Assembly: GCA_944389595.1 (NCBI GenBank) | Contig: CALXMY010000001.1 | Span: 179 to 64,178 of the forward strand | DNA length: 64,000 bases | Direction of reading: 5' to 3' | Origin: an uncultured Alphaproteobacteria bacterium | GTDB lineage: Bacteria; Pseudomonadota; Alphaproteobacteria; Rs-D84 | In this document: positions 8,165-59,801 of the stretch, piece after piece | How positions within the stretch are numbered: the first letter of the stretch is position 1 | How the letters are laid out: each line of letters opens with the position of its first letter | Program-made: the position numbers and the translations under genes | Notes under the pieces: generated by a model | What the model was told of the DNA's origin: nothing | Database searches by the model: none | Seen by the model: only the letters and a program-made list of their open reading frames with translations

Positions 8165-11100
8165 ATGAAAAGCCGTAATTTCGCAGATCACATAAAAAAT
8201 GCGATGGGAACAGTATTTCTGTTGGCGGGTGCGTTTTTTGTTTGTTCGACATTATTGTCGATGCGCGCCGTGTTTGCTGATCCAATTGCGCCGACCATGA
8301 CGGTATCGGCACCGACGGTTGCATCGCCGCGTACATCGGGGACGGTACGCGCATCTGCGCGTCCGGCATCATCGCGCAGCACAGCGTCATCCGTTGTATC
8401 GCGTGGCACGGCACAAACACAAAATGTTGCACCATCACGTGGGGTGACATCACGCGCAATTGTCTCGCGCGGTACGACCACGCCGGTAACATCGCGGGTT
8501 AATACAACAACGGCATCGCGTGCAACGGCATCGGGTCGGCCCAGTACAACGGTTTCGCGCCCCGCGGCGGCAACGGCCGCAAATTCACGTGGGGTAACAT
8601 CACGTGCGGTTGTATCACGTGGTACCGCATCAAATACGGTTTCGCGTGTGGCGGCGAATAATACAGCACGCAGTGTTCGTTCACGCACGGCGACAACGCC
8701 ATCGCGCATTTCATTACAGGGCAGTGCAATCCGTGGCAGCAAGGCCGCCGTGAATTCCAATACATACACATATCTGCAAAGCAAATTATATACGGGTAAT
8801 TATTCAAATATTATTGACTCGTCAACCGGTCTGATTTCGGCCGAGGCTTATAATAACTGTATGGAATCATATTATGCATGTATGGATGAAATTTGTACCG
8901 CACGTAATGCGGCACAACGTCGCTGTGCATGTGCCGGCCGTGTCAAGGCATTTGCCGAGGCCGAAGCCGCACTGGAACAGGCGAACGAGGAATTAATCAA
9001 GGTTTCCGGTGAATTGGCGTTGTTGGTAGCAACCAAGGGCAAAGATATCAGCCAGGCTTTCCAATTAACAGACGCTGAAAAGGTTATGAACTGTGTTTCA
9101 TGGAAGGAAACAACCGATAAATATGGTACTGATTCTGAAGAGGCCCAGGATTGGTGCTTTAACCATGGTATATATGACGGCAATGGCAAAGGACAAAGCC
9201 CGTGCGGCCAGCCATCATATTGTTCGTCATCGGGTAATACATTCGGATTTGATATTGCAAATATAGACGGCTCCAGCAGTGATATTTTGGCATCACTGCA
9301 ATCATGGGCCGATGCAAAGGAAAATACATTAACAATTATTAGCGATGATACAGACAGTTTGACATCGGCATTTGAAAACCTGACCAGTGTTGTGGGCAGT
9401 TTGGCCGGCATTGATGGTGCTTTTGCAGATTCTGGTGATCTAAAGGATTCGTTGGCTGAAACATGGGGCTATGAATTATTTGAATACGCGCACAATAACG
9501 TTTGTAACCGCGTGTTGGATTCTTGCTTTAACGGCATATACGAAGCGTGCGGTACCCCACCGACCGGTGGCGCAAAATGTGGCAACGGCCGTTCACAATG
9601 TCCGTATAATTACAACAGTTATATATCTGTATCAAATACTGGAACATATGAATTGAACTTTATTGAACCAAATACGGGATATACGGCATCTAATTCGGCA
9701 ACGTGTTTTGGTTATACAACCGCATCCGGTGACCCGTATGCAGATTTGCGTGGTCCAGTGGCGGATGCACGTCGCAGCATTATGCAAAAATATGCGTTGG
9801 ATGCCAATGCCGATTGCGATGCATATGGTGAACAATTAAGTACGGCCGCCCAAAATATTGGCTATCAAAAGGTTGCCGCACAACAGGCATTGCAACAAAA
9901 ACGTTTGGAATTCGCCCAAGAGGAAGAAACAACCATCGCATCAGATTACAAGGCTGCGCGTGATAACTTTAATGAATGCTTGGCCGAATTGTATGATTGC
10001 TATACAACCCAGGAAACGGCGCAGCCGAACTGGAGTACCAGCCGCATCAAAACATATTGCGCCCAGGTATCAAATGTTCCGCATTGCTATGAAGAAATGA
10101 TTTGCAGTGCCCCGAACAATATATTACAGGCCGTTATTGACAAAGAAGACGACAGAACCAAGAAGTGTACGAATTCAACTGACTTTGACACTAATACATG
10201 TCGCAATATCATAACACTGTCTGAAATCTTAAGTGGCACATATGCTGAAGGTGCGGTAGAGGATTCGTCAGTTGCCCTGCGCGAGGCATGTCTGCAATCG
10301 ATTGATATCGAAGGTGTTCGTTCATGGCGCAGCAAGAATACCAGTGATGATGCTGGCTGGACCAGCCCACAGTGCCCGGATGGTACACACGAAGAGAACA
10401 GTGCGTGCGTGCCAAATACACAGGAATGTGATGCCACTGGATTTACAGATCCCAATGCAGCAAAGGGGGTTCAAACATGGGATTCTGTTAAGGAAACTTG
10501 GGGACCGTGTGTGTTAACAGAATGTAAGGGTGATTATTATGCATCAAATGGACGTTGCATACCATGCGGTGAAAATACCCATACCGAAAACGGTGCATGT
10601 GTACCGAATACTAAATCATGCACGCACACCGATCCAAATGTGTCAACAGCAACGCAAACATGGAATTCGAGCAGTTGGGGTGCATGTACACCGCAATCAT
10701 GCCGGTTAGATTACGTATTGAGTGATGGTAAATGTATAGCCAAGGTTCGGGTATGTAACAGTGGTGATCCGTATGCAGCCACCGGAACCCAACAATGGGA
10801 CGAGGAAACAAAAGAATATGGCCCGTGCCAGGTTCGTACATGTATTGCCGGATATGTATTGGATAATGGCAAATGTATCAGTAATTCACGCCAGTGCACC
10901 CATTCTGATCCGAATGTTGCAAATGCTGTGCAACAATATGATTCCGCGAGTGGACGCTGGGGTGATTGCGTGGCCACATCATGCGAAGCCGATTATGCAT
11001 TAACGGCGGATAAAAGATGCGTGGCCAGCGAAACCAGTTGTAAACATACCGATCCAAATGTTGCGACGGCATTTCGCACATGGAATGGCAGTACGTATGG

Positions 11101-11188
11101 CGCGTGTTTGGCGCGGACCTGCGTTGCCGGATATGAATTGAATGGTAACACATGTGTGGCGATTGCAACGCCCGGTACCGGTGAATAA
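8165..11188 (+). CDS. large secreted protein, S/T/R-rich repeat region plus Cys-module repeats (paralog A)
   Basis: 1007 aa; GGGGGA SD; signal peptide; VSRGT/TSR repeats; conserved block NCMESYYACMDEICT...QRRCACAGRV; seven ~40-aa modules C.H.DPNV...Q.W.....G.C....C...Y.L..GKCI. Confidence 0.7.
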   Translation: MKSRNFADHIKNAMGTVFLLAGAFFVCSTLLSMRAVFADPIAPTMTVSAPTVASPRTSGTVRASARPASSRSTASSVVSRGTAQTQNVAPSRGVTSRAIVSRGTTTPVTSRVNTTTASRATASGRPSTTVSRPAAATAANSRGVTSRAVVSRGTASNTVSRVAANNTARSVRSRTATTPSRISLQGSAIRGSKAAVNSNTYTYLQSKLYTGNYSNIIDSSTGLISAEAYNNCMESYYACMDEICTARNAAQRRCACAGRVKAFAEAEAALEQANEELIKVSGELALLVATKGKDISQAFQLTDAEKVMNCVSWKETTDKYGTDSEEAQDWCFNHGIYDGNGKGQSPCGQPSYCSSSGNTFGFDIANIDGSSSDILASLQSWADAKENTLTIISDDTDSLTSAFENLTSVVGSLAGIDGAFADSGDLKDSLAETWGYELFEYAHNNVCNRVLDSCFNGIYEACGTPPTGGAKCGNGRSQCPYNYNSYISVSNTGTYELNFIEPNTGYTASNSATCFGYTTASGDPYADLRGPVADARRSIMQKYALDANADCDAYGEQLSTAAQNIGYQKVAAQQALQQKRLEFAQEEETTIASDYKAARDNFNECLAELYDCYTTQETAQPNWSTSRIKTYCAQVSNVPHCYEEMICSAPNNILQAVIDKEDDRTKKCTNSTDFDTNTCRNIITLSEILSGTYAEGAVEDSSVALREACLQSIDIEGVRSWRSKNTSDDAGWTSPQCPDGTHEENSACVPNTQECDATGFTDPNAAKGVQTWDSVKETWGPCVLTECKGDYYASNGRCIPCGENTHTENGACVPNTKSCTHTDPNVSTATQTWNSSSWGACTPQSCRLDYVLSDGKCIAKVRVCNSGDPYAATGTQQWDEETKEYGPCQVRTCIAGYVLDNGKCISNSRQCTHSDPNVANAVQQYDSASGRWGDCVATSCEADYALTADKRCVASETSCKHTDPNVATAFRTWNGSTYGACLARTCVAGYELNGNTCVAIATPGTGE

Positions 11189-12389: not shown

Positions 12390-14744
12390 ATGAAAAAATT
12401 ATCATTGTGTCTTTTTATAATCGCGTGTTTTGCGCCGTTGGTTGTTGCCAATGGGGCATCGCGCGTGATTCCGTCGTTGGGTGTATCGACCGGTGACAAT
12501 GCCAATTCCACTGGTTCGCGTGACGCATCCGTTATCGCGGCGCGTGTAAAAACAACACGTTCGTCTGTGACACCGCCTGCAACAAATACGGATACGGTAA
12601 CAGCGCGTGATACATCTGCGCGTGCGGTGGTAAATCGCAGTGGTGCGACACAATCTGATAATGTTTCAAAATCTGATGTTGTACGTGTTGGCTCGCGTGT
12701 TTTGAATATAAACGGCACATCCACACCAACAACGTCTGGGCGTGGTTCAACAAATGTGCGCAATACTGGTGCCGCGTCGCGTGTTGGTTCGGCCCAGGTA
12801 CACACAAATACCGCGCGCGAAAATCTGGAGGCAACGGTCAATACCGTTGGTCGTAATTCACGGGTAGAGGCGGCCAGTATAAATAATAATCCCGCGGTGC
12901 GTCGTGCCGGGTTAACACTGCGCCCATCCACGGCCGAGGTTGGCGGTCGCGCCACAATTGCGGGCACAGATATACAAACAGGTTCAAACATTGACGAACA
13001 AATTCGCGGTGTGCAAACACGTGCGGCCACAAATGTACCAACCACTGAATCCATTGCCGAGGCCAAAGAACGTTTGGATTTAACATCTGACTTAAATGCA
13101 TCATGTCAACAGCAATACAATGATTGCATGGATCAATTCTGTAATGTTATTGATGCAAACCAGGGACGTTGTTCATGTTCGGCAAATTTGGCAAATTACA
13201 CCGATGTAGAAGAGGCCGTAACCGATGCAAATAATAAATTGAACGAGGTTGCCCAACAAATTCGCTATGTCGGATTAACAGCGGATGAAATACGCGCAAT
13301 TATGAGCGAGACCGAGGCCGAAGCGGCCTTGTCCGGGGCCAAGGATACATCGGAAACACGCAATATGTTGGAAGAAATCGAAAAATTAATTCGTGATCCA
13401 TCGGGTTCCAGTTCGACATATTCGTCAAATTCGGTGTCATTGGGTTTGGATATGGATTTGGATTTTTCATCCGATATTGCCGATATATTTAATTTGGATT
13501 TTCTGAATTTAAACACGGGCAGTTTTTCAAACCTGCGCGGAACCAGTTTATATAATGCGGCAAAAAATCGTTGTCGGGTTGTTTTGAATCAATGCGAAGA
13601 GGCCGGCGCAAATATTGATCAAATCACCGCAAATTACGATTTGGCAATTGACAAGGATTGCATTGCGTATGAACAGGGCCTGACCAAAATGAACCAAACA
13701 TTGGTTTCAAATGTGCGCAGTGCGAATTTGATGCTGCAAAAGGCGCGATTGGCAGTGTTGCAAAATAAAAATCAATACGATGCCAAGGGATGTATTGCGG
13801 CATTGGATACATGTATGACCGATGAAATGGTTTGTGGTGCGGATTATACAAAATGTCTGGATCCGACCAAGCGATATATTGATGAAAACGGCAATGTTGT
13901 TTTGGGCCAGGATATTACCAATATTTTGGATTTTATGGCAGATTATAATAATGCAAATATTGTTTCGGATTTCTTGTCTGAGTCATACGGCAGTGAAACG
14001 TACTTTGACGAAAAATATTGTGCCGGCGAAGGTAATGATGGGCGTTGTGTTGTAAAGTATCTGTTGCAGAAAATCGGTACCAAAGAAGACAGCACCGCCG
14101 AAGGTTTATGCCGTCCTGTTTTGGATAAATGCCAGGCATATACATATGATGAAGATGGTAAGTATCAGAAATATAATGATATAGTTGTAAATTATATCCA
14201 GCGTGCAATGGTGAATATCCAGGCGGCTCAGCGTCAGATTATATCTGATTATGCGTCAAATTGTATGCTGGATGTTGCAAACTGTTATAATCAACAGGTA
14301 ACACAGGTAAACGCATGGTCCACCAGTGCCAGTGTAAGCAGTATATATAATGTTATGCGTGGTGCATGTCGTAATGTGGCATTGACGTGTGCATATGCAG
14401 TATTTGCCAATGATACTGCCAGCTGTCCAGACGATGCAGGTCAAGAGGACACATGCATAGAAAGTATATCGCAAATGTTCTATCAATCATTATTGTGCCC
14501 GGATAATTCAAAGTATAGTTCAAGTTGTAAAACCCAGATTAATACTGAGGGAACATCATGTGTTAATGATATGTGTGAATGTTTGTCTGGTTATGACCCG
14601 TGGGCCGGTACACAATGTTTGCGTGAATGCCCGGATAATGCGGAACCTAAAAGGAATGCATACGGGCAATGTGTGTGCAAAACCGGATACACAATGCGTA
14701 ATGGTTTATGCGTTGCGGATAATACATCTGGGTCTGGTGCCTAA
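12390..14744 (+). CDS. large secreted protein, S/T/R-rich region plus Cys-rich modules (paralog B)
   Basis: 784 aa; signal peptide MKKLSLCLFIIACFAPLVVA; T/S/R-rich N-terminal region; conserved block SCQQQYNDCMDQFCN...QGRCSCSANL matching paralog A; C-terminal EGF-like CECLSGYDPWAGTQC. Confidence 0.7.
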   Translation: MKKLSLCLFIIACFAPLVVANGASRVIPSLGVSTGDNANSTGSRDASVIAARVKTTRSSVTPPATNTDTVTARDTSARAVVNRSGATQSDNVSKSDVVRVGSRVLNINGTSTPTTSGRGSTNVRNTGAASRVGSAQVHTNTARENLEATVNTVGRNSRVEAASINNNPAVRRAGLTLRPSTAEVGGRATIAGTDIQTGSNIDEQIRGVQTRAATNVPTTESIAEAKERLDLTSDLNASCQQQYNDCMDQFCNVIDANQGRCSCSANLANYTDVEEAVTDANNKLNEVAQQIRYVGLTADEIRAIMSETEAEAALSGAKDTSETRNMLEEIEKLIRDPSGSSSTYSSNSVSLGLDMDLDFSSDIADIFNLDFLNLNTGSFSNLRGTSLYNAAKNRCRVVLNQCEEAGANIDQITANYDLAIDKDCIAYEQGLTKMNQTLVSNVRSANLMLQKARLAVLQNKNQYDAKGCIAALDTCMTDEMVCGADYTKCLDPTKRYIDENGNVVLGQDITNILDFMADYNNANIVSDFLSESYGSETYFDEKYCAGEGNDGRCVVKYLLQKIGTKEDSTAEGLCRPVLDKCQAYTYDEDGKYQKYNDIVVNYIQRAMVNIQAAQRQIISDYASNCMLDVANCYNQQVTQVNAWSTSASVSSIYNVMRGACRNVALTCAYAVFANDTASCPDDAGQEDTCIESISQMFYQSLLCPDNSKYSSSCKTQINTEGTSCVNDMCECLSGYDPWAGTQCLRECPDNAEPKRNAYGQCVCKTGYTMRNGLCVADNTSGSGA

Positions 14745-17639: not shown

Positions 17640-18938
17640 TTAGTTTTTTTTACGAATGGTTTTAATAATATCTTTGCCTTGTTTGGTAACGTTACCCCAA
17701 ACTTTTTTGATATCATTACTAAATTGTTGACTGAATGTTTTATCGATTTTCCCGCCCAGATTTTCCGCAATTTCATTTGCGCGACTGGCCAAATACGCAA
17801 CCAATATGCCGGTTAATAATGTTATCATAAATCCGGAATTTTCCAATGTTGGAACCGATGCGGATGCATCCACGCTGATTGTGCCTGATAACAGTGCGGC
17901 ACACAGCGCAATTACAATTGATAACGATACAAAATAAATTGCTGCATCTATGAATCTGGATATTTGTTTTGATAATGATTCTGGTTTGAACAGGCCCAAA
18001 AATCCATTGTATATATCACCAACAATACCCTTGTACGATGTTTGGTTTATTGTTTCGGCAATGGCGGTAAACGGTAACATCGCAACCCCCAGAAATAAAT
18101 CAATAATTACCCCCAATCCCATTAATGCAAATTTAAAGGCATTGTATACGAACACAACAATAAATATTAATCCAACCAGCATTGTAAACGCACTGTGCCC
18201 AATACCAGAAATCATCCATTTCCACCCAATTGAAATCGCGGTTGTGAAAAATCCAGATAATCGTGTTGGAACGCATAATATATTTGCGGTGGCTTCGGCA
18301 TCCAATATCATGTTTTCAGATACGTGTTGTGCAGTATATGCATGTATTGCCCCGCACGTATCCGGAATTTGTAATCCGATTGTATTTGATACCGCGTTTA
18401 ATATTAAATCAGACAAATATGTACCAATACTGATAATCGGCCCCATAATCCACATAAATAATTGTGCGGGTCCGAATGCCAATATAATCGACCAAATTGC
18501 AATTACCGCGCCCTTTTTTACCAGATTTTCACCCAAATCCATTGCACTGGTGCCTTTGGTCATCATGTTATATGTTTCAAATATTAACCAGAATACATAC
18601 GCGATAATCATGAATATTATTGCAAATCGTACCAACGATGCATCCAATATATCCGCAATAACAGACATCGCATTAATCAGTGCCAAACCTATTTTCGCCT
18701 CGATTGGAACATAATCAGGTACGGATTGTGCATTTTGGAACCCGGATTGAAATTCAACCATATCGGTTCCAATTGCCATGTTAAATTGCGCCATATTATC
18801 ATCGGTCATCCAATTGCCATAATCACCGATTTCTGTTAATGGTAAATTTGATTCGGCCCCGATTGCATACGGCATAATAAACATGCATGCGATTGCAACC
18901 ATAATAATTTTTACAAAGATGCGTTTCAGTATTTTCAT
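17640..18938 (-). CDS. polytopic membrane protein, TrbL/VirB6-like, paralog 1
   Basis: 432 aa; signal peptide, periplasmic segment, >=6 TM helices, Lys-rich C-tail with NLGGK motif; start ATG overlaps stop of upstream paralog by 1 nt. Confidence 0.55.
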   Translation of the reverse strand: MKILKRIFVKIIMVAIACMFIMPYAIGAESNLPLTEIGDYGNWMTDDNMAQFNMAIGTDMVEFQSGFQNAQSVPDYVPIEAKIGLALINAMSVIADILDASLVRFAIIFMIIAYVFWLIFETYNMMTKGTSAMDLGENLVKKGAVIAIWSIILAFGPAQLFMWIMGPIISIGTYLSDLILNAVSNTIGLQIPDTCGAIHAYTAQHVSENMILDAEATANILCVPTRLSGFFTTAISIGWKWMISGIGHSAFTMLVGLIFIVVFVYNAFKFALMGLGVIIDLFLGVAMLPFTAIAETINQTSYKGIVGDIYNGFLGLFKPESLSKQISRFIDAAIYFVSLSIVIALCAALLSGTISVDASASVPTLENSGFMITLLTGILVAYLASRANEIAENLGGKIDKTFSQQFSNDIKKVWGNVTKQGKDIIKTIRKKN

Positions 18939-20383
18939 TACTTTTTACCAACCGCATTTGATATGATACCGAATATTTGCTTTGGTGTGTTCCATATTTT
19001 TTTACCTAAATCTTTTGCCCATGTTCCAAAATCAAATTGTTCACCTTTACCGGCCTTGTCCAATCCGAATATGGCGGAAACTTTTGGTTTAATGGCCCAA
19101 AAATACAATGCGAATAATAATATCATCATCAACAGAAAATCCCATCCGTCGCGCATAAAATCAAATGCACCGGGATATTCGCGTTCAATTGTTGCGCGTT
19201 GCGCGGTAAAACAGTCACGGAATTTATCGGCATCCATTTCACCGTCAGCGGTTGCGACCTGTTCGCATGTGGAAAATACATTTATTATCGACATTGTTTG
19301 GGCATCAGGATTTTCAACAGTGCGCCCCATCATTGGCGGTAAAATCGCGCTGTATCCGTCCACAGGCCCCGGGAAATACGCATCAGCGGCATATGCAACG
19401 ATGGCATACGTTAATATAACTTTCAAAGTAATACTGATAATTTGAACAGCGGATTCCACCAATTTATTAATTGCATTTTTTACAACCCCACTGGCCAAAG
19501 ACCATGTTTGTTCAAATGCCGCCGCCCCCAATATCAGTGGCAAAAATATGATATAAAACACCAATTTAAATATTACTGATAAAACCTGGAATACTAAATC
19601 GAATCCGATTATCAAAAACATCAAAACCAATGTCAATCCGGCCAGCCATGTAAATACGCCACCGCCCAAATCCAACCATGCATAATTCATTAACGAAAAA
19701 CCGCCCGCCGCGCCGGCCAACATGACGCTGTTAATGTTTCCCATAACGCACATAAAAGGTTGTAATATTGGTGCCAATACATTATCAGATGCATTCGCGG
19801 CATCAATTGCACCACATTGCGCGGCATCCGATACCCCAGATGCCGCCATTGATAATTCGGCACCAACAAATAACACCGGTGTAATTGTAATGTTCGCAAC
19901 CGTGCGCAATGCCGCCGTGCCGCCCATCCCCAGTGCACCCATCAGTGCGCCAACAATTAATACGCGTGCACCCTGTCGCCATACTTTGTCAAACCAGCCG
20001 GCCAATTCCAGTTTTTTTTCTTTTTCATCCAGTTTTGCTGTTTCTTTGGCCGCATTAAAAATATATTGCCCCGTGTGCACGAATAAAAATAATCCGAATC
20101 CAATGGCCAATAAAATCCAAATGTTATCAACCATGGCGGTCCAAAACATTTCGGCCGCATTACCGATAACAACAAATAAATCCTCGATATATTTGCACAG
20201 AAAACATCCATTCGCAGATGCAATATCGCCGTCACCCGCACCAATTGCGTTTAAAAAGCCATCCATACTGGTATATGTTATTGCATCGCCACTGATTGCT
20301 GATGTCAAATACCATATACCAACGCCGATTGCTATCAGCGCCATGGCAATTTGTATGGCAATCATAATCAGTTTTGCTTTCAC
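18938..20383 (-). CDS. polytopic membrane protein, TrbL/VirB6-like, paralog 2
   Basis: 481 aa; GCFLCKYIEDLF CxxC motif, multiple TM helices, C-tail DLGKKIWNT..KK; GTG start at 20383 overlaps upstream stop (alt ATG 20365). Confidence 0.55.
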   Translation of the reverse strand: MKAKLIMIAIQIAMALIAIGVGIWYLTSAISGDAITYTSMDGFLNAIGAGDGDIASANGCFLCKYIEDLFVVIGNAAEMFWTAMVDNIWILLAIGFGLFLFVHTGQYIFNAAKETAKLDEKEKKLELAGWFDKVWRQGARVLIVGALMGALGMGGTAALRTVANITITPVLFVGAELSMAASGVSDAAQCGAIDAANASDNVLAPILQPFMCVMGNINSVMLAGAAGGFSLMNYAWLDLGGGVFTWLAGLTLVLMFLIIGFDLVFQVLSVIFKLVFYIIFLPLILGAAAFEQTWSLASGVVKNAINKLVESAVQIISITLKVILTYAIVAYAADAYFPGPVDGYSAILPPMMGRTVENPDAQTMSIINVFSTCEQVATADGEMDADKFRDCFTAQRATIEREYPGAFDFMRDGWDFLLMMILLFALYFWAIKPKVSAIFGLDKAGKGEQFDFGTWAKDLGKKIWNTPKQIFGIISNAVGKK

Positions 20384-21591
20384 TTCTTTTCTGCGCTTTG
20401 GTTTTTATTATCGTCTTTCTTTTCGCCGCCATTCAATATATTTTTACCGATATTTTTGGCGACATTTACAACATTTGTTGTCAATTTCATTGCGTCGTCA
20501 GCCAATTGTTCGCTTAATTTATTATCAGGCGACACGCCGAACGATTCCCATACCATTGATGTAACCTGGGGAATTTGTCCATATATAAAGTTTAACACAT
20601 ATATCAATATTATGCATCCACCAACAGTCATTGCGGCCAAATTATCATCTGATAAATCTTCTGCGAAAATATTGCCACTGGTAATTAAATCCATAACTTC
20701 GTTCACACTTTGCCCCGGTTCAGAAAAGAATTTTGCAATTATCACCATAATAATTGTATATGTCAGCACCGCAGATACCAATGCGATAATTGCATTTATC
20801 AGTTTTTTAAATTGATTGGTGCCAACCTCTTTGCCCAACCCAGACATCCATTTTGGGGCATCATCGCCCTTGAACGCGACCAATATTAATGACAATGGGA
20901 AAAAGAATGCGAAAAACGTCATTGCCACAATGATATCGGCAAAATAAAAGCAAAATCGTACAAATAATTTGAAAAATCCATAAAACAGATACAGCCCGAT
21001 AAAAAATAAAATAATATGTTTAATCAGTGAACCAATGCCAAACAATGCTTTTAATGAAAAAGCTTTGTCCATAACAGCAATACCCAATTTCATATATGAT
21101 TGAAATTGTGTAATTGTTGTTTTCATCAACATAATGATAGTATCGCGCAATTGTGGACGATAAAATCCATCATCGGACATTTGCATTGGTTGATATGTAA
21201 CTTTTTCATTAACGATGTCGTTATCAGTGTTTAACATGCTGTGCGTATAAATCAGTGCGATATTTGCCGCCGGTTCAAAAGTTATTGTCGTAATAAAGCG
21301 CGGCAGCATTACCCCCATGCTTAAAAATGTTAACGAAACCAATGAATTTATTAACAGTGGCTTTAAAGATTTCTGATACCATGGATCTGTTATTCCACCT
21401 TTGATATTTTTCCATACAGCGTTTATTACATAAAATGCAAACAATATGCAAAACAGAATGGCACAGAAAATTGCAAATTGGTTATATACTGATGCGGCCG
21501 CATCAGATACAATTTGAAACAAACGGTCAAATACCGGGCAACCCCAACATTGCACCGCAGAATCAACCAAAGAATTCATAAAATCGTTCAT
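20380..21591 (-). CDS. polytopic membrane protein, TrbL/VirB6-like, paralog 3
   Basis: 403 aa; QCWGCPVFDRLF CxxC motif; multiple TM; C-tail NIGKNILNGGEKK; ATGA overlap with paralog 4 stop. Confidence 0.55.
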   Translation of the reverse strand: MNDFMNSLVDSAVQCWGCPVFDRLFQIVSDAAASVYNQFAIFCAILFCILFAFYVINAVWKNIKGGITDPWYQKSLKPLLINSLVSLTFLSMGVMLPRFITTITFEPAANIALIYTHSMLNTDNDIVNEKVTYQPMQMSDDGFYRPQLRDTIIMLMKTTITQFQSYMKLGIAVMDKAFSLKALFGIGSLIKHIILFFIGLYLFYGFFKLFVRFCFYFADIIVAMTFFAFFFPLSLILVAFKGDDAPKWMSGLGKEVGTNQFKKLINAIIALVSAVLTYTIIMVIIAKFFSEPGQSVNEVMDLITSGNIFAEDLSDDNLAAMTVGGCIILIYVLNFIYGQIPQVTSMVWESFGVSPDNKLSEQLADDAMKLTTNVVNVAKNIGKNILNGGEKKDDNKNQSAEKK

Positions 21592-22883
21592 TTCTTTTTA
21601 ATCCATCCAAATGCGGTTCCCAGTGTTTTGCCCAAATTTTTAACGTTTTTCTGTAATACTTTTGTGTCGCCTTTGACCTGGTTGTATAAATTATCCATTC
21701 CCTTGCCCACGTATGAATCCAATTGTTCGCGTGTCAGATTAAATATACGAAACATTAAATAAAATGTTAATATCGCAGACAGCCATAATATTGAATGTTC
21801 ACCAAATCCCAATGCATTGGTCGCCACAGATGGTACATTTGATGTCGATGTTCCGCCGGCCGCAACAACAAATACAGATGAATTCCATCGGAATAACGAT
21901 TTTACGATCGCAATATTTACGCATAATATAAATGCGCATGCGATTGTTGTTATAACGATTTTTTGTAATGCCTTGGTTATGCCGCCGAATGCCGGCCATA
22001 TGTCCAGCCATTTTTCATTTGATTTTACCACATATGTTAAAACCTGAAACGGATACATTATTAATGCCATGCCAAAATTAAATATTGCCTGGATTATCAG
22101 CAATGCCATAAATAAATTACTGGCCACAAATGTGAATATTAAAATTATTCCTGTGACAATGTTTAAAAAGTCTTCGCCACCATGTGGAATCAGCGTTATC
22201 AGCCCGCGCAATCCGGATGTTACAAAATCAAATCCGCGTTTTATTATTTGATTGTTGGCATTTGATATATCGGATACCGGTTGGACCAGAAATTCGCAAC
22301 TTTCGCGTGTAATCCAGCCTTCTTGGATTATTGATTGCGGACATTCTATTTTTTTACCCGATACGCCGGCCTCGTTAATTGTATTGGTAATACTTTCGGT
22401 ATAATATGCGCCAAATTGCAGAAATGGGTTAATCAGCCATTCTGTCATATACACAGGTTTTAATTGCAATAAAATAGTTACCGCGATAATGGCGCGAATT
22501 GCCGGTTTTAACATATTTGTTGCAATTGTCATACCGCTGATACCATCGGCCATTTCGCCACCACCAGAAAATCCAAAAAAACCGACCCATGTTTTCGGAA
22601 AATATAATTTCAGCAAATACATTGCCATTGATACGATTAAAAATCCCCACACTAAAATATAAATAATACCGTCGCCATTGCCGACAAAAAATTCATATCC
22701 GCCGGTTGCGACCGCCATCAACGCATCCAATATTGTTGGAATTAATGGTGCCAAATTCAATGCATCAACAATTGCATATTGGGCGGCATTTGCATCAATC
22801 GGGGTACACAAAAACACGGCCAAAACCACCAATGGTATTGCGCGAATAAATATATTATAAACTATCGATTTTATAAAAAACAT
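21588..22883 (-). CDS. polytopic membrane protein, TrbL/VirB6-like, paralog 4
   Basis: approx 431 aa from ATG 22883 (track start 22910 is TTG); signal peptide MFFIKSIVYNIFIRAIPLVVLAVFLCTPIDANA; multiple TM; C-tail NLGKTLGTAFGWIKKK. Confidence 0.55.
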   Translation of the reverse strand: MFFIKSIVYNIFIRAIPLVVLAVFLCTPIDANAAQYAIVDALNLAPLIPTILDALMAVATGGYEFFVGNGDGIIYILVWGFLIVSMAMYLLKLYFPKTWVGFFGFSGGGEMADGISGMTIATNMLKPAIRAIIAVTILLQLKPVYMTEWLINPFLQFGAYYTESITNTINEAGVSGKKIECPQSIIQEGWITRESCEFLVQPVSDISNANNQIIKRGFDFVTSGLRGLITLIPHGGEDFLNIVTGIILIFTFVASNLFMALLIIQAIFNFGMALIMYPFQVLTYVVKSNEKWLDIWPAFGGITKALQKIVITTIACAFILCVNIAIVKSLFRWNSSVFVVAAGGTSTSNVPSVATNALGFGEHSILWLSAILTFYLMFRIFNLTREQLDSYVGKGMDNLYNQVKGDTKVLQKNVKNLGKTLGTAFGWIKKK

Positions 22884-22933
22884 TCTCTCGGTATTATTTT
22901 GTCTTTTCAATTATATCACATTTAGGGCAAAAT

Positions 22934-24241
22934 ATGATATACTTAAAAACAATGAGCAAGTTAAAAAAATTCTGGATTATTTTTTTATCGTTCCTGCCGT
23001 TTTCGGCGGGTGCCGCGGCACCGTTGGTTATTGGGGCAATTGCGGGATTGGGGGTTATTGCCGGATTTTCGATTTACAGAACGGCCGCCCCGGTAAATAT
23101 GGCAGATTCATTGAATTTTTTTTCCAGTTGCTGGTCGTGCCAGATGTTTTCGGACATAATTGCAATAATGTCCGGATTGGTTCCGCGGGTGTATGATGCG
23201 TTGGCTGGCGTTATTATACCGTTTGCGGCGGTATTAATGGCAATATGGTTTGCATGGAAATTGCTGTCTGGTTTTATAAATACAAAAATGGATGAAACAT
23301 GGTCGTTGGTTGGCGATTTTGGGACGAAATTTATAAAATTGGCTTTTGTTTCGGCATTGTTATTAATTCCATTACCACGGTTATTGACTGATATTGTAAT
23401 TGAACCGGTATTTAATGTCGGTTTGTCGTTAAACAGAATTGTTTCCGGAAACGACGAATTTGCAAAATGTGTTGTTGCGACTGCGGTGGCAGATCCGACC
23501 GCCGCCAGTGTGGATGCCGCATCATCGGGCGCGTTTTCGCCACAATTGCGCCATAATTTGACATGTGAAATTGCAAACATGCATCAAATGACCGGATTGG
23601 GAATGACGGTCGGGTGGACAATGCTGAACATGGCATTTAATGACGAATATATGCATCATATTTTATGGGTAATCCCAATATTTCCAAATGTGCCGATTTT
23701 CTTTGCCGGGTTATTAATATTGGTTGTATTCTTTTTCGCGTTATTACCAGTTCCCCTGTATTTTTTGGAGGTTTTTATAAAACTGGCCATGGATTTGGTA
23801 ATGTTGCCATTTATGCTGTTGTCATGGTTATTTGATGGATGGGCCATATTTCCAAAGGGCGGCCGTAATATAAAAAATATGATAAATGATGTGATAAAGG
23901 GCACCCTTGGCATCGCCATGGTCGGGGTTTTTGTTACGTTTTCGGTAATGTTTTTAAACGCCGTGTTTGGCCAGTGGCGCGGCGCGGACAGATTGGCCCT
24001 GGCATTGGCCGAAAACGATTCGACAATTTTGATGGATGGTTTGTTAATGCGAAATGACAGTATTATCACTATCTTATTAATGGGGCTGTTTTTTGCAATG
24101 TTTATGACAATGATACCTGCGCTGGTAAAATCTATATTTACCAATGTGGAAATTCCGAATACATTCTACGAATCGACCAAGAAAAATTTAAATATTGTGT
24201 GGGGAAACATGAAAAAATGGTACACATCACTAAAAAAATAA
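22934..24241 (+). CDS. polytopic membrane protein, TrbL/VirB6-like, paralog 5 (divergent)
   Basis: 435 aa (alt start 22952); signal peptide, SCWSCQMFSDII CxxC motif, multiple TM, C-tail KKNLNIVWGNMKKWYTSLKK. Confidence 0.55.
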   Translation: MIYLKTMSKLKKFWIIFLSFLPFSAGAAAPLVIGAIAGLGVIAGFSIYRTAAPVNMADSLNFFSSCWSCQMFSDIIAIMSGLVPRVYDALAGVIIPFAAVLMAIWFAWKLLSGFINTKMDETWSLVGDFGTKFIKLAFVSALLLIPLPRLLTDIVIEPVFNVGLSLNRIVSGNDEFAKCVVATAVADPTAASVDAASSGAFSPQLRHNLTCEIANMHQMTGLGMTVGWTMLNMAFNDEYMHHILWVIPIFPNVPIFFAGLLILVVFFFALLPVPLYFLEVFIKLAMDLVMLPFMLLSWLFDGWAIFPKGGRNIKNMINDVIKGTLGIAMVGVFVTFSVMFLNAVFGQWRGADRLALALAENDSTILMDGLLMRNDSIITILLMGLFFAMFMTMIPALVKSIFTNVEIPNTFYESTKKNLNIVWGNMKKWYTSLKK

Positions 24242-24309
24242 AAAATCAAGTGCTTTATTTAACGTGCCCCCCTTTTTTGTGTCGTCCGAATCTGATATAA
24301 TTCATAGCA

Positions 24310-24831
24310 ATGAAACAGTTTCCGATTCTTTATTGGCCACGCAAAACCACCGCCGACCCGGATTACCAGTTGGCGCGCAAGATTATAAATAACACAACCG
24401 GTGTCATGCCGGATGTTTTGACCGGCCCAACCGATATAGTTGAAATATTGGCACAAAATCCAAATGCCACGGTTTATTATCCTGTGTTTTGCGAATCGAC
24501 CGGATGGTGGGGGGAACTGTTGGGCGGCGATGCCATTGTAACGGATAAATTAATAATATCCCCGGAATGTCAATTGATGGTAATCGAATCATCAAAAATG
24601 ACAAACGCAACATCCACGCGTGGCGGCAAACATCAACTGTTGGCGGCGGAAATATACCCGGCCAGCGGTTTTTTTAAGAAAATGAATTCCGGAATTGCAA
24701 CGGTTGCGGATATGTTGGCAACTGATGCGGGGACTATTTTGGCATTGTTTGCGGGGAAAAATCAGTCCCAATTTATAAATGTATTGGAATCAACGGGAAA
24801 TTCATATTTGGGGTGTATTGGGCGGTATTAA
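24310..24831 (+). CDS. hypothetical protein
   Basis: 173 aa ORF, no family recognised. Confidence 0.45.
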   Translation: MKQFPILYWPRKTTADPDYQLARKIINNTTGVMPDVLTGPTDIVEILAQNPNATVYYPVFCESTGWWGELLGGDAIVTDKLIISPECQLMVIESSKMTNATSTRGGKHQLLAAEIYPASGFFKKMNSGIATVADMLATDAGTILALFAGKNQSQFINVLESTGNSYLGCIGRY

Positions 24832-32135: not shown

Positions 32136-33572
32136 ATGCGACAGATTGCAGTTTCTGTGTTATCACTGTTTATTGCGTTGCCGGCATTTGCCGGGGCACG
32201 TATGCCGGTTGTAAATTTGGCGGCCGGTGGTGTTTCTGCGCGTGCCGCGTTTGGTGAACCCGTTGTGTCGGCGCAAAATAAAGGTGCCGAAAAAAATATA
32301 ATTGCGACAAATTCTGATACACAAAAATCTGATAATTCGGGTGTGCGTAATGTTGTTGCGCGCAGCGGGACTGCTCAAACGGTCAATATTGCACATTCAA
32401 AACATGCGGATACCGGTGGCACGATAATGGCAAGTGCCGATGTTTTATCGCCCCGTCGGCCCAGTGCAGATTTATGGGCGCATTCATCAACCGGCACCGC
32501 CACACCATTGCGGTTGCCCAGTCCGGATGAATTTTCCGTTATTCGTTCCGATGACGTATTACCCGAAGAAAGTTTAAATTCCGCCGCGCCAACGCGTATC
32601 GCGGCACGTACAACATCAAATAACGATGTTGCATGGACGGCATCTGTTTCGCCCCAGGCATCGTACGACGTGTCCGCGACAATGTCTGAATTGGACGCAC
32701 AAATTGCGCGTTTGAATGAATTACAACGTCGCGCAAATGACAGTGTGCGCGATGATTTCGCGAATATGCAATCCGATCCACGTGAAATTACAAATGTGGC
32801 GGCACCACGTGTTGCGTCGCGTAATGTCGTTGCGCGTCCGGCGGCCACTAAAACCGTTCAAAAAACGATTGCATCACCCACAATTGCGCGTGCCGACGAT
32901 TCGGATGACGATATTAAATTATCGCGCATGGTTGTGCCAATGAATGATATGACCGATGATGTTGTTGTGCGTGCGGTTAAACGTGCCGAATCTCCACGTA
33001 TTACTTCTGTACGCGAAGATATGACTAAAATGAGTCCCAGCGAATTGCGCAAGGCATTTCGAAAAACATTTTTATCGGAAAATAAACATTTATCAACATT
33101 TCAAATTGATGACAGATTTGATGTGGCCAGTGATATGACCGCCAATGCCGCGGGATTTACATCGGCGCGTGATTTGTCCGAATCTGGTGGTATTCGTCCA
33201 TTGGAAATAAAAATCAAATTCCGTAATTATGATGCGGCGTTATCGCGTGATAATTATACGCTGTTAACCGAATATGCGGGAATTGTGTTAAGTAATCCGA
33301 CCCGCGCAATTCAGGTTTCAATTCCGCAAAAGGTGACTGTGGATGACGATGACCGTAAATTGGCGGCGCGTCGTTTGGCAATCGTGGAACAGGTTTTGCG
33401 TGACAACGGCATTTCGGAACAACGGATATTGCCCGTTTTATCCCAGCGTGACGAAGATGGTTTGGTTCTGCGTATGATATCATTGGATCAATATGAAACG
33501 TTGACCAAACAACAACAAAATATATTTGGTGATACAATCAGTAAAAAAACGTACAGAAGTATGTCGTGGTAA
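32136..33572 (+). CDS. secreted hypothetical protein
   Basis: 478 aa; signal peptide MRQIAVSVLSLFIALPAFA; S/T/R/A-rich; occupies the position where murC/ddl/ftsQAZ would normally follow murG. Confidence 0.5.
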   Translation: MRQIAVSVLSLFIALPAFAGARMPVVNLAAGGVSARAAFGEPVVSAQNKGAEKNIIATNSDTQKSDNSGVRNVVARSGTAQTVNIAHSKHADTGGTIMASADVLSPRRPSADLWAHSSTGTATPLRLPSPDEFSVIRSDDVLPEESLNSAAPTRIAARTTSNNDVAWTASVSPQASYDVSATMSELDAQIARLNELQRRANDSVRDDFANMQSDPREITNVAAPRVASRNVVARPAATKTVQKTIASPTIARADDSDDDIKLSRMVVPMNDMTDDVVVRAVKRAESPRITSVREDMTKMSPSELRKAFRKTFLSENKHLSTFQIDDRFDVASDMTANAAGFTSARDLSESGGIRPLEIKIKFRNYDAALSRDNYTLLTEYAGIVLSNPTRAIQVSIPQKVTVDDDDRKLAARRLAIVEQVLRDNGISEQRILPVLSQRDEDGLVLRMISLDQYETLTKQQQNIFGDTISKKTYRSMSW

Positions 33573-41862: not shown

Positions 41863-41890
41863 AAAATGCGCCAACGGCGCATTTTTTTAT
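41863..41890. terminator. bidirectional terminator hairpin
   Basis: AAAAAATGCGCCAACGGCGCATTTTTTTA. Confidence 0.7.
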
Positions 41891-42504
41891 TTTTGATTTT
41901 CCTGTTTGGATTTTAATGTTTTTAATCTTTTTTCATAAAATTTCATCAAAGTCGTGTTTACATCATTTTTGAATTTTTGTGTGTTGTTTTGTATACGTTT
42001 ATGCCATGTGGTCGTATCCAAATATTTTCTATACGCGGCACTGTCCGCAGCCAAATTATCAATTTCGGCGTTTACGTTTCGTAAATAATCCGTTGCGTGG
42101 CTTAATGGCCGGCTGTTGCGCAGTGCGGTGGTATATGTGGCATCCTTTATGGAATCGCGCGTTGCGTAAAATTTTTCTGCTGCTTCCTCTAGCGCAATTG
42201 TTTTATCAGATGATGCCATTGGTGTTGCGTTTATTTTTTTGCGCGCATCAGATAATTGCTGCATCGCATTTTTGTATTCCGTGGTATGCGGCAAAATGCT
42301 GTCCGCGTATCTCAGCGCGTTATTAAATGCTGTTTGATATTCCAATGTGGCATATGGCAAAACAGTATTACGCATATGGTCCAATTTACCCTGGTCAAAA
42401 CTTTTTGCGTCATATGATGCGATATATGCCGCAATGAACATGGCAATAATCGCAAAAATGCAACATGTTATTTCTAATTTTTCCATTGGTGTTTTTTTCG
42501 CCAT
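41887..42504 (-). CDS. hypothetical N-anchored helical protein
   Basis: 205 aa; single N-terminal TM then helical/coiled-coil domain. Confidence 0.45.
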   Translation of the reverse strand: MAKKTPMEKLEITCCIFAIIAMFIAAYIASYDAKSFDQGKLDHMRNTVLPYATLEYQTAFNNALRYADSILPHTTEYKNAMQQLSDARKKINATPMASSDKTIALEEAAEKFYATRDSIKDATYTTALRNSRPLSHATDYLRNVNAEIDNLAADSAAYRKYLDTTTWHKRIQNNTQKFKNDVNTTLMKFYEKRLKTLKSKQENQK

Positions 42505-42519
42505 GTTAAGTCCTTTTTT

Positions 42520-43092
42520 TTATCTGTCTTTTTCGTTTATTTTTTGTTGCACAATGGCAGCACGCTTGTCAAAATATTTGGACAAATTCAGGTTTGCGTT
42601 TAACCGTGCCTCGCGCCAACGTTGACCTAATGTGACAGAATCATTATATTTTAAGTATTGTTCAATTTGTTTTACCCTGTTTCTTGATGCATCTAATCGC
42701 AGTTTTGCTTTTTGCAAATCACGATTATTATGAATGTATTGATTCTGCAATTCGCTGTTTAATGAATCAATTTTGCGTTCCAGAGAATCGCTTTTATTAA
42801 TGTTGCCACGTTTAATTTCGTCATAAAATTGATTTAATAATCTCATGTATGTCGTATCTTGTTTTAATGTGTCATAGCTACGATTAATAACCGTATCATA
42901 CACCAGTTGATAATTCTCTTCCGAATGATACAGATTTTCGCGCGCTAAATCCAGGTCGTGTTGATTCGCTGGCATATCAGTTGCGTACGCGAATATTGCA
43001 ATCGCACCTATCACGGTTGTGCCGGCAAACATTGCCGCCCCTGCAACGTGTTTCCCGAACTTTTTAATATTTAATTTTTTTTGTTCAGACAT
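42520..43092 (-). CDS. hypothetical N-anchored helical protein (same architecture as neighbour)
   Basis: approx 190 aa from ATG 43092; single TM then coiled-coil domain. Confidence 0.45.
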   Translation of the reverse strand: MSEQKKLNIKKFGKHVAGAAMFAGTTVIGAIAIFAYATDMPANQHDLDLARENLYHSEENYQLVYDTVINRSYDTLKQDTTYMRLLNQFYDEIKRGNINKSDSLERKIDSLNSELQNQYIHNNRDLQKAKLRLDASRNRVKQIEQYLKYNDSVTLGQRWREARLNANLNLSKYFDKRAAIVQQKINEKDR

Positions 43093-43196
43093 AATAATTC
43101 CTTTTGCTTTTTCCCATAACAATATAGTACAAAATATAATATTGTCAATATATAAAATGAAAAAAATATTTTTCTCGTGTTATGGGAAAAATATTT

Positions 43197-43271
43197 TGGC
43201 AGTCCCAACGGGAATCGAACCCGTGTTACCGGAATGAGAATCCGATGTCCTAACCGCTAGACGATGGGACC
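43197..43271 (-). tRNA. tRNA-Glu (anticodon CTC as read)
   Basis: own fold: acceptor GGTCCCA/TGGGACT, D-arm TCGTCTAGCGGTTAGGACA, anticodon stem TCGGA/TCCGG with loop TTCTCAT, T-arm GGGTTCGATTCCC, discriminator G, CCA encoded. Confidence 0.75.
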
Positions 43272-43617
43272 AACGCCGTATATATTACAAATTATTTCCC
43301 ATTTTGCAAATGGTAAATGTATTGGGGCTGTGTGTGGGGCGATAATTTCGCGTATCAACATATTTAATGAAAAATATTGGGGTGGAAATTCTGGTGGCGG
43401 AATATTTGATAATAAGGGTGATATAATGGGAATTCATGTATGGGGCAAGCCTATAATTGGTGGTGAAAATCACGCAGGCAGCGCGGGTGGAATAAATCTG
43501 CAGATATCTGCATGGGATGGAATGAAAAGAAATGTAAAAGGTAATCTGCAAAATATAGTTGATGCTATAAAAGTTAATGATATAACAGTTAACGGTAAAG
43601 AAGTTGAAAGTATGTAA
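43264..43617 (+). pseudogene. C-terminal remnant of trypsin-like (S1) serine peptidase
   Basis: GNSGGGIFDNKGDIMGIHVWG matches the catalytic-Ser segment (GDSGGP-like) of the S1 fold; no room for His/Asp-bearing N-terminal half because ORF begins inside tRNA-Glu. Confidence 0.4.
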
Positions 43618-43656
43618 AAAGTGTTTTTTTATTTTTTTACCAAGGGGGGTTAAATT

Positions 43657-44028
43657 ATGAAAAAAGAAACAAAGGTCACGAAGTTAAAAATTGCTGGTAT
43701 AACTGCTTTGGTTGCGGGTGTGCTGGCGGCCGGTGGAATCGCATACAATAATTTTGCAAATTCCGAGAAAGATTCCGATAAAAAATTGGAAATCAACACG
43801 TCTAAATTAACTGTAAAGCAAATGCAGGATTTTATCCATGAATCAGATATTGCACTGGCACGTTTGCAAGGCGTTATTGATTCTGATACCGCCAATCCCG
43901 AAGAAAAATTCGAAGCACGTCGTGCATATAACAATATAAGTGTTGAGCGTGATAAAATGCGGAACGAATTACAAAAACGCCAACAAAAAACAATTGATTT
44001 TGATACAGTTCGTACGAACCATAGGTAA
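43657..44028 (+). CDS. hypothetical membrane-anchored protein
   Basis: 123 aa, N-terminal TM, GGGG SD. Confidence 0.4.
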   Translation: MKKETKVTKLKIAGITALVAGVLAAGGIAYNNFANSEKDSDKKLEINTSKLTVKQMQDFIHESDIALARLQGVIDSDTANPEEKFEARRAYNNISVERDKMRNELQKRQQKTIDFDTVRTNHR

Positions 44029-59723: not shown

Positions 59724-59801
59724 ATAAAAAGTATAGGAATTTATTTGATTGCGTCGCAACGAAAAATTTCGTATGATGAAAGCCCATAAGGAGAATAACT
59801 T

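What the first reader, a model, noticed from the sequence alone, without database searches (positions are those of the whole stretch)
17640..24241. Stand-alone array of five paralogous TrbL/VirB6-like membrane proteins
Five consecutive genes of 400-480 aa share one architecture: N-terminal signal/TM segment, periplasmic segment, five or more TM helices, and a Lys-rich cytoplasmic tail with a conserved NLGK...W.N..KK-type ending. Three of the five carry a CxxC motif in the first periplasmic segment (SCWSC, QCWGC, GCFLCK), each followed by F-[DSE]-x-[LI]. Four genes lie on the minus strand with overlapping stop and start codons (TAATG, GTGA, ATGA), so they are translationally coupled. The fifth is divergent, separated by only ~50 bp. 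This architecture and tandem paralogy resemble the virB6 expansions (4-5 copies) of Rickettsiales type IV secretion systems. In those genomes the array follows virB3-virB4; here it sits between uvrD and an orphan gene with no other T4SS component nearby. So this is either a relocated or free-standing virB6 cluster, or an undescribed membrane-protein family.
Basis: partly seen in the sequence, partly recalled or inferred. Interest (0 to 1): 0.8.

Follow-up and report, generated by a model that had tools for sequence, protein, structure and literature searches.

The report
Five-paralog VirB6-like membrane protein array
A tiny-genome gut bacterium (Candidatus Enterousia) keeps five ancient, very divergent copies of the VirB6 inner-membrane protein of type IV secretion systems side by side, with no other secretion gene nearby; because VirB6 works as a ring of five, the five copies probably build one mixed ring.

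Summary
Five adjacent ORFs of 403-481 aa lie at 17640-24241. Four are on the minus strand with TAATG, GTGA and ATGA stop/start overlaps, and one is divergent. They are distant but real paralogs. The CxxC motifs in B, C and E are invariant in 81-85 orthologues.

The window comes from Candidatus Enterousia (order Rs-D84, genomes under 1 Mb). The order E|D-C-B-A is kept in every complete locus among 173. No VirB1-11 homologue lies within 10 kb of any array. A second clade has its own five-gene array with position-by-position orthology.

Best reading: a new VirB6/DotA-fold subfamily whose five paralogs form a heteropentameric inner-membrane platform or channel. I could not test whether T4SS partners exist elsewhere in the genome.

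The parts
17640..18938 (-). Paralog A (432 aa). Last gene of the D-C-B-A operon and the fastest-evolving member. N-terminal signal/anchor; conserved loop Cys pair C195/C222.
18938..20383 (-). Paralog B (481 aa, GTG start). CxxC at C60/C63, loop Cys pair C190/C212, and an extra Cys pair C373/C391. Its stop overlaps the start of A (TAATG).
20380..21591 (-). Paralog C (403 aa). No N-terminal signal/TM segment; CxxC at C15/C18. Its stop overlaps the start of B (GTGA).
21588..22883 (-). Paralog D (431 aa from the ATG at 22883; the longest ORF reaches the TTG at 22910). No CxxC; loop Cys pair C190/C205 (numbering of the 440-aa ORF). Its stop overlaps the start of C (ATGA).
22884..22933 (.). Short divergent intergenic region that must hold the promoters for D-C-B-A and for E. 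It contains a TGTGATATAAT extended -10-like motif on the minus strand.
   Evidence: The consensus scan of the region was only modestly above shuffled expectation for promoters and not above it for terminators, and was not informative.
22934..24241 (+). Paralog E (435 aa; possibly starting at the conserved Met7 at 22952). The member closest to distant relatives. Signal peptide-like N-terminus, CxxC at C66/C69, loop Cys pair C179/C211, invariant Pro292. Modelled, and matches TrwI/VirB6 and DotA.
24310..24831 (+). p173: a lineage-specific cytoplasmic protein that is always adjacent to E. Its membership in the system is doubtful. The ribosomal L31 and inositol monophosphatase genes next to it also stay linked to E.

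Best explanation
The five genes encode a very divergent, ancient subfamily of the VirB6/TrbL/DotA superfamily. These are polytopic inner-membrane proteins built from two transmembrane helices, a disulfide-bonded periplasmic domain and about five further hydrophobic helices.

Shown: the proteins are paralogs; the modelled paralog E has the VirB6 fold; the set of five, its order and its tight junctions are conserved across Candidatus Enterousia and relatives; and the proteins evolve at about the rate of FtsW.

Inferred: solved VirB6 and DotA are homopentamers that form a funnel at the base of the T4SS stalk. I therefore propose that one copy each of A, B, C, D and E assembles into a heteropentameric funnel or platform in the inner membrane. 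Translational coupling of D, C, B and A and the divergent promoter for E would keep the stoichiometry near 1:1:1:1:1. The CxxC and loop cysteines would stabilise the periplasmic crown. The Lys-rich C-terminal helices would lie on the cytoplasmic face.

The ring would serve as the inner-membrane conduit or assembly platform of a T4SS-derived envelope machine. A partner-dependent bacterium with a genome under 1 Mb would use this machine to exchange macromolecules with another cell. Its other parts are encoded elsewhere or are too divergent to recognise.

For: Sequence. HHalign of the family profile against six annotated VirB6 proteins gives 83.3% locally (E 8.6e-6), extending colinearly over 305 columns, and 90.2% globally. 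The reversed control gives 0.4%. PF04610 was the only Pfam family hit by more than one of 97 family representatives: 7 hits, all on the same profile region. The best scores were 25.6 and 25.7 bits against a cut-off of 25.9. P0253 and P0396 carry a precomputed PF04610 label.

Conservation. The order E|D-C-B-A is present in every locus with enough flank. The block stays intact while the outer flanks rearrange. Overlapping junctions are conserved. Median identity to the window is 55-66%, against 65% for FtsW.

The number five. The 50%-identity representatives fall into four linked groups, with B and E merged, and by best hit to A-E they split 45/16/33/14/44. A second clade (L091, L180) has its own five-gene array with 1-1 to 5-5 positional orthology. 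Rickettsiaceae carry five virB6 copies (PMC7648143). VirB6 and DotA are pentamers (PMC12624023; bioRxiv 10.1101/2025.06.23.660953).

Lifestyle. Rs-D84 genomes lack standard transporters and are thought to be partner-dependent (PMC12306168).
Against: None of the five proteins reaches any Pfam or NCBIfam threshold. Genus-level profiles alone give no HHalign signal against VirB6. So homology rests on one predicted structure, a family-wide profile and near-threshold hits.

No VirB1-11 homologue was found within 10 kb of any array in 173 loci totalling 2.86 Mb, nor in L180. No T4SS Pfam domain occurs in the 64-kb window. A VirB6 ring without VirB4, VirB3, VirB8 and VirB10 has no known function.

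Heteropentamer formation is inference from copy number. L092 shows only three tandem copies, and Anaplasmataceae have four. The membrane topology of the C-terminal half is ambiguous from sequence.
Confidence: 0.5

Rival explanations
1. These are ordinary VirB6 components of a canonical but scattered rvh-like T4SS. In this reading virB2, virB3, virB4, virB8-11 and virD4 lie at other chromosomal sites, as in Rickettsiales, and only the virB3-virB4 linkage has been lost. The paralogs may be used alternatively rather than together.
For: The fold is VirB6. In Rickettsiales the T4SS genes are split over three or more loci and virB6 is expanded to 4-5 tandem copies (PMC7648143). Enterousia is an alphaproteobacterium with a reduced genome and a presumed partner-dependent lifestyle (PMC12306168). 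Some NCBI records label these MAGs as 'uncultured Rickettsiales'.
Against: The virB3-virB4-virB6 synteny, described as common to all Rickettsiales (PMC7648143), is absent here and in every other lineage sampled. The published metabolic reconstruction of Rs-D84 mentions no secretion system; 'secretion' has zero occurrences in its main text. The proteins are 400-480 aa and PF04610-negative. That rvhB6 proteins are larger and readily recognised by PF04610 is from my own knowledge and was not tested here.
Confidence: 0.3
2. This is an exapted, T4SS-independent membrane complex. In this reading the VirB6 fold was recruited as a stand-alone channel or membrane-organising ring, for example for uptake of metabolites or lipids in an organism that lacks standard transporters.
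For: No T4SS gene lies near any array. The arrays sit among housekeeping genes in at least four lineages whose loci span 30-60% GC. Rs-D84 genomes lack standard sugar, amino-acid and peptide importers but have many unexplained membrane proteins (PMC12306168).
Against: There is no precedent for a VirB6 homologue working without a VirB4 ATPase. No energising component is linked to the arrays: the large neighbouring proteins have no Walker A motif. VirB6 and DotA funnels are wide conduits for macromolecules, not solute carriers.
Confidence: 0.15
3. The proteins are not homologous to VirB6. In this reading they form an unrelated helical membrane family whose predicted structure converges on a similar bundle.
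Against: Both T4SS VirB6-type proteins in the PDB rank first and second out of 48,164 chains, well separated from the background. The HHalign alignment is colinear and full-length, with a clean reversed control. Repeated near-threshold PF04610 hits fall on the same profile region.
Confidence: 0.05

Closest known systems
TrwI/VirB6 of plasmid R388 (PDB 7O3V, 8RT9, 8RTD) and the Pfam family TrbL/VirB6 (PF04610)
   Different: About 13% sequence identity and no Pfam hit for the five proteins. They are 100-180 aa longer, with an extra N-terminal signal/anchor and a CxxC helix. There are five heterologous copies instead of one gene for a homopentamer. They are not encoded with VirB5, VirB3, VirB4 or VirB8.
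Rickettsiales rvh virB6 expansions (four copies in Anaplasmataceae, five in Rickettsiaceae; PMC7648143)
   Same: Tandem, co-transcribed paralogs of a VirB6-type protein, 4-5 copies, in reduced-genome Alphaproteobacteria.
   Different: The Rickettsiales arrays always follow virB3-virB4 in one operon. Their proteins are much larger; in Anaplasma, VirB6-3 and VirB6-4 carry long C-terminal extensions. That they are readily recognised by PF04610 is from my own knowledge and was not tested here. Here the array is split into a divergent pair of transcription units, lies between uvrD and a housekeeping block, and has no virB3 or virB4 within 10 kb.
Legionella DotA (T4BSS; DotA-IcmX protochannel, PDB 9NGY)
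   Different: DotA is far larger: 857 residues in the matched 9NGY chain against 435 in E. It is a single gene and is encoded among about 27 dot/icm genes. No IcmX-like partner was identified here.

Membership tests
TrbL/VirB6 (Pfam PF04610) | Score at or above the curated gathering threshold (25.9 bits) | tested here: not met
   None of the five hits PF04610 at E<=1. Distant family members reach 25.6 and 25.7 bits. The consensus of the 97-representative alignment A2 scores 14.3 bits. Positive control: Agrobacterium VirB6 scores 59.5 bits.
TrbL/VirB6 (Pfam PF04610) | VirB6 fold: TMI and TMII, a periplasmic domain, then five hydrophobic helices | tested here: met
   [not shown]
TrbL/VirB6 (Pfam PF04610) | Profile-profile similarity to bona fide VirB6 proteins | tested here: met
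   HHalign of A3 against six annotated VirB6 proteins: 83.3% locally (E 8.6e-6), 305 colinear columns with greedy extension, 90.2% globally; reversed control 0.4%. The strength is moderate. Genus-level profiles alone give 0.3-2.9%.
Type IV secretion system (functional membership) | Encoded together with VirB4 and other mating-pair-formation genes | tested here: not met
   No phmmer hit of Agrobacterium VirB1-11 (E<0.01) in 173 loci totalling 2.86 Mb around the arrays, nor in L180/L181. No T4SS Pfam domain in the 64-kb window.
Type IV secretion system (functional membership) | VirB4, VirB8-11 and VirD4 present anywhere in the same genome | not testable with these tools
VirB6/DotA | Pentameric assembly in the inner membrane, capped by a VirB5- or IcmX-type pentamer | not testable with these tools
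   Only monomer prediction is available. No VirB5-like gene was recognised near the array.
VirB6 | Topology: periplasmic N-terminus, large periplasmic loop after TM2, cytoplasmic C-terminus | tested here: inconclusive
   Hydropathy and charge counts fit N-out, TMI, a short basic loop, TMII and a large Cys-pair loop. The number of spanning helices in the C-terminal half is ambiguous.
Rickettsiales rvh virB6 array | Four or five tandem virB6 paralogs | tested here: met
   Five paralogs, conserved in all complete loci.
Rickettsiales rvh virB6 array | Operon with virB3 and virB4 upstream (PMC7648143) | tested here: not met
   The flanks are uvrD on one side and p173, rpmE and an inositol monophosphatase gene on the other.

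The most novel reading that the evidence does not exclude
Candidatus Enterousia and several other uncultured lineages have no canonical T4SS at all. In that case the five-paralog array is a self-standing heteropentameric VirB6-type ring: a previously unknown envelope machine descended from the T4SS stalk base. It would be used by ultra-small, transporter-poor bacteria to take material from a partner cell. The recurrent number five would be a direct genetic read-out of the five-fold symmetry of VirB6.
Probability: 0.25. Interest if true: 0.85.

Novelty: new variant of a known kind. Interest (0 to 1): 0.62.

Why it matters
VirB6 is among the least understood core T4SS components. Its pentameric structure was solved only in 2022, and its symmetry mismatch with the hexameric VirB3/VirB4 complex is unexplained.

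A lineage that has hard-wired five different VirB6-type subunits, in fixed order and with translational coupling, offers a natural system in which each position of the ring is genetically addressable. It also suggests a structural reason for the long-puzzling 4-5-fold virB6 expansions of Rickettsiales.

The family is large: about 1,000 clusters at 50% identity. The members I examined are unnamed or called 'hypothetical protein'. The array takes about 0.7% of a genome of less than 1 Mb, in common gut bacteria thought to depend on a partner cell. So it is a strong candidate for the machinery behind that dependence.

If these genomes really lack VirB4, this would be the first VirB6-type complex known to work outside a T4SS.

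Tried and rejected
- Single-sequence searches with Pfam, NCBIfam and PHROGs on the five proteins found nothing.
- HMM searches of the PDB sequences with profiles A1 and A3 returned only designed helical proteins and chance hits.
- tblastn of a distant member (P0255) against 72,556 plasmids gave no match.
- The afdb50 fold library was not available.
- The 86-91-aa two-TM ORFs upstream of the arrays in L091, L094 and L180 were tested as VirB3 or VirB2 candidates. They have no similarity to Agrobacterium VirB proteins, and the L091 and L094 copies do not match each other by phmmer, so the resemblance is positional only.
- The large, charged, divergently transcribed neighbours (300-723 aa) have no Walker A motif and no VirB similarity.
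- The promoter and terminator consensus scans gave no usable signal: promoter-like sites were only about two standard deviations above shuffled expectation and terminators were at expectation.
A5 worked.
- The literature gave no report of a T4SS, or of these proteins, in Enterousia or Rs-D84. The 2023 Enterousia paper is not held.
Full report
**1. What is in the sequence**

Between 17640 and 24241 there are five long ORFs:
- A: 17640-18938 (-), 432 aa.
- B: 18938-20383 (-), 481 aa, GTG start.
- C: 20380-21591 (-), 403 aa.
- D: 21588-22910 (-), 440 aa from the longest TTG ORF.
- E: 22934-24241 (+), 435 aa.

The three minus-strand junctions read GTAATGAAA, AAGTGAAAG and AAATGAACG.

D most probably starts at the ATG at 22883, giving 431 aa. 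A related MAG calls D at that length (locus L001), and a TGTGATATAAT motif sits over the TTG.

All five proteins are strongly hydrophobic with at least five predicted membrane segments, and all have Lys-rich C-termini. C lacks the N-terminal signal/anchor that the other four have.

**2. Are they paralogs?**

Pairwise identity is only 16-23%. BLASTP still links A-D (7.5e-7), C-E (4e-6) and B-E (1e-3). I built profiles from 81-85 orthologues of each gene. HHalign between them gives C-E 96.8%, A-D 92%, A-E 90% and A-B 84%, over 270-340 colinear columns. The paralogy is real and ancient.

The CxxC motifs of B, C and E are invariant in every orthologue. So is a second Cys pair in the large central loop of A, B, D and E. 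A Pro in an LPF motif (E Pro292) is invariant across 97 family representatives.

**3. Organism and conservation**

A scan of one genome per species found the C gene in 80 loci. The records are titled Candidatus Enterousia, uncultured Alphaproteobacteria or uncultured Rickettsiales, and include a circular 958,618-bp genome. Enterousia belongs to GTDB order Rs-D84. These are gut bacteria with genomes under 1 Mb that lack most biosynthesis and standard transporters and are thought to be partner-dependent (PMC12306168).

The arrangement E|D-C-B-A is present in 81 of 86 loci; the rest are truncated contigs. It is also present in 80 further metagenome loci with E identity down to 50%. The outer flanks rearrange: uvrD, PBP1a-mraY-ftsW-murG, p784 or p478 can each abut the array. 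The block IMPase-L31-p173-E|D-C-B-A stays intact throughout.

Overlapping or near-zero junctions are conserved. Median identity to the window is 55% for A and 64-66% for B to E. That compares with 65% for FtsW and 72% for UvrD. These are selected, functional genes.

**4. Family size**

A profile of the five proteins finds 1,023 clusters at 50% identity with E<=1e-3, and 373 with E<=1e-10, in a library of 1.8 billion representatives. The best 150 fall into four linked groups (B and E merged). By best hit to A-E they split 45 A, 16 B, 33 C, 14 D and 44 E. Every family protein I checked for a name or Pfam label was unnamed or 'hypothetical protein' and had no Pfam domain, apart from the TrbL labels on a few distant members.

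**5. Is it VirB6?**

Direct sequence tests fail. There is no Pfam or NCBIfam hit at E<=1, and no PDB sequence hit with profiles A1 or A3.

Three deeper tests agree with each other.

(b) Profile-profile comparison. The family-wide profile was compared with six annotated VirB6 proteins taken from Agrobacterium, Novacetimonas, E. coli, Aeromonas, Rhizobium and Shinella plasmids. HHalign gives 83.3% (E 8.6e-6). The alignment extends colinearly over 305 columns, and global mode gives 90.2%. A reversed-sequence control gives 0.4%.

(c) Pfam on relatives. Of 97 family representatives, seven hit PF04610 TrbL at E<=0.01. It was the only Pfam family hit more than once, and always on profile positions of about 77-210. 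Two tandem members in locus L094 score 25.6 and 25.7 bits against a cut-off of 25.9. Some carry a precomputed PF04610 label.

Calibration matters here. Agrobacterium VirB6 itself scores only 59.5 bits on PF04610. It does not detect TrwI by phmmer at E<=10. Sequence silence is therefore normal inside this superfamily.

I conclude that the five proteins form a new, deeply divergent branch of the VirB6/TrbL/DotA superfamily.

The layout matches the published description of VirB6 and DotA: TMI and TMII, a periplasmic domain (disulfide-bonded in DotA), and five hydrophobic helices (bioRxiv 10.1101/2025.06.23.660953). In E, the HHalign core aligns residues 92-144 with TM1-loop-TM2 of Agrobacterium VirB6. 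This places the CxxC helix and the Cys-pair loop on the periplasmic side. The topology of the C-terminal half remains ambiguous.

**6. Is there a T4SS around it?**

No. Precomputed Pfam annotation covering most of the 64-kb window shows housekeeping genes and several domain-less proteins, and no T4SS domain. phmmer with Agrobacterium VirB1-11 finds nothing at E<0.01 in 173 loci totalling 2.86 Mb.

Distant family members from other lineages also sit among housekeeping genes, with no VirB gene nearby. These loci are L090 (60% GC), L092 (47%), L091 (30%), L094 (35%) and L180 (41%). Their neighbours include uvrB, sufB, gidA and rpsB-tsf.

I could not search a whole Enterousia genome. This is the main gap in the analysis. 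The published Rs-D84 reconstruction mentions no secretion system, which is weak negative evidence.

**7. The number five**

The L091/L180 clade has its own array of five co-directional family genes. It is preceded by an 86-91-aa two-TM ORF and a divergently transcribed large charged protein. The five genes of L091 and L180 are reciprocal best matches position by position, 1-1 to 5-5. L094, a truncated contig, shows the first two.

Rickettsiaceae also carry five tandem virB6 genes, and Anaplasmataceae four (PMC7648143). VirB6 and DotA are homopentamers in solved machines (PMC12624023).

The simplest reading is that fixed five-member arrays encode the five positions of one ring. L092, with three copies, and Anaplasmataceae, with four, show that the rule is not absolute.

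**8. Mechanism proposed**

Shown: the VirB6 fold, five conserved paralogs, tight translational coupling, conserved cysteines and purifying selection.

Inferred: a heteropentameric funnel or platform in the inner membrane. Its periplasmic crown would be stabilised by disulfides or by the CxxC. It would act as the conduit or assembly base of a T4SS-derived machine that serves the partner-dependent lifestyle.

Rivals:
- A scattered canonical rvh-like T4SS (confidence about 0.3).
- An exapted, T4SS-independent channel (about 0.15).
- Structural convergence without homology (about 0.05).

**9. Novelty and verdict**

I found no report of this family or this array. The fold is a known kind. The variant is new in several ways:
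- A divergent subfamily that falls below Pfam's TrbL threshold, so its members are annotated at best as hypothetical proteins.
- Five fixed heterologous subunits.
- Separation from virB3 and virB4.
- Chromosomal housekeeping context.
- Presence in abundant gut bacteria with minimal genomes.

Its interpretation is partly supported.

Noticed in passing
[not shown]
   Followed up: yes
window 32136-33572 (+); L091 16054-17535: p478 has a signal peptide, a long disordered region and a divergent OmpA_C-like C-terminal domain. Its homologue lies directly after the five-gene array in L091 (E 4e-22). In L060 and L061 it lies next to IMPase-p173-E. It is a possible envelope partner of the array.
   Followed up: partly
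window 8165-11188 (+) and 12390-14744 (+): Two large proteins (1007 and 784 aa) have no Pfam domain; the 784-aa one has a signal peptide, a low-complexity Ser/Thr/Asn/Arg-rich N-terminal half and a Cys-rich C-terminal half. They are conserved near the array in most Enterousia loci. They may be surface proteins.
   Followed up: partly
L091 4967-5227, L094 1015-1275, L180 9699-9974: An 86-91-aa protein with a two-TM hairpin and a charged tail lies immediately upstream of the five-gene arrays of the second clade. This is near where virB3 sits (before virB4 and the virB6 genes) in Rickettsiales operons. No similarity to VirB3 or VirB2 is detectable, and there is no counterpart in the Enterousia locus.
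   Followed up: partly
window 41887-44028: A cluster of small proteins (205, 200 and 123 aa) with N-terminal hydrophobic anchors and helix-rich, charged tails, possibly related to one another, lies in a low-GC patch (35-37% against about 42%). None has a Pfam hit on record. It may be an island or a set of lineage-specific envelope proteins.
   Followed up: no
window about 22914-22924 (minus strand) and about 24293-24301 (plus strand): The same extended -10-like motif, TGATATAAT, lies just upstream of the likely start of D and about 10 nt upstream of the p173 ATG. This suggests short-leader or leaderless transcripts.
   Followed up: no
L046, L070, L074: Public MAG records titled 'Bacteroides fragilis' (CAVGNU010000001.1) and 'uncultured Muribaculaceae' (OZ246409.1, CAZJGX010000015.1) carry Enterousia-type array loci with 62-72% identity to C. 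They are evidently mislabelled or misbinned.
   Followed up: no
L093 7001-7888 (Agrobacterium VirB6) against PDB sequences: A bona fide VirB6 does not detect the solved VirB6 homologue TrwI by phmmer at E<=10, and scores only 59.5 bits on PF04610. Absence of a Pfam hit is therefore weak evidence against VirB6 homology in general.
   Followed up: yes
window 57783-59909 (-): A ComEC/Competence-domain protein (PF03772) is encoded in this reduced genome. No other competence gene was noticed in the window.
   Followed up: no
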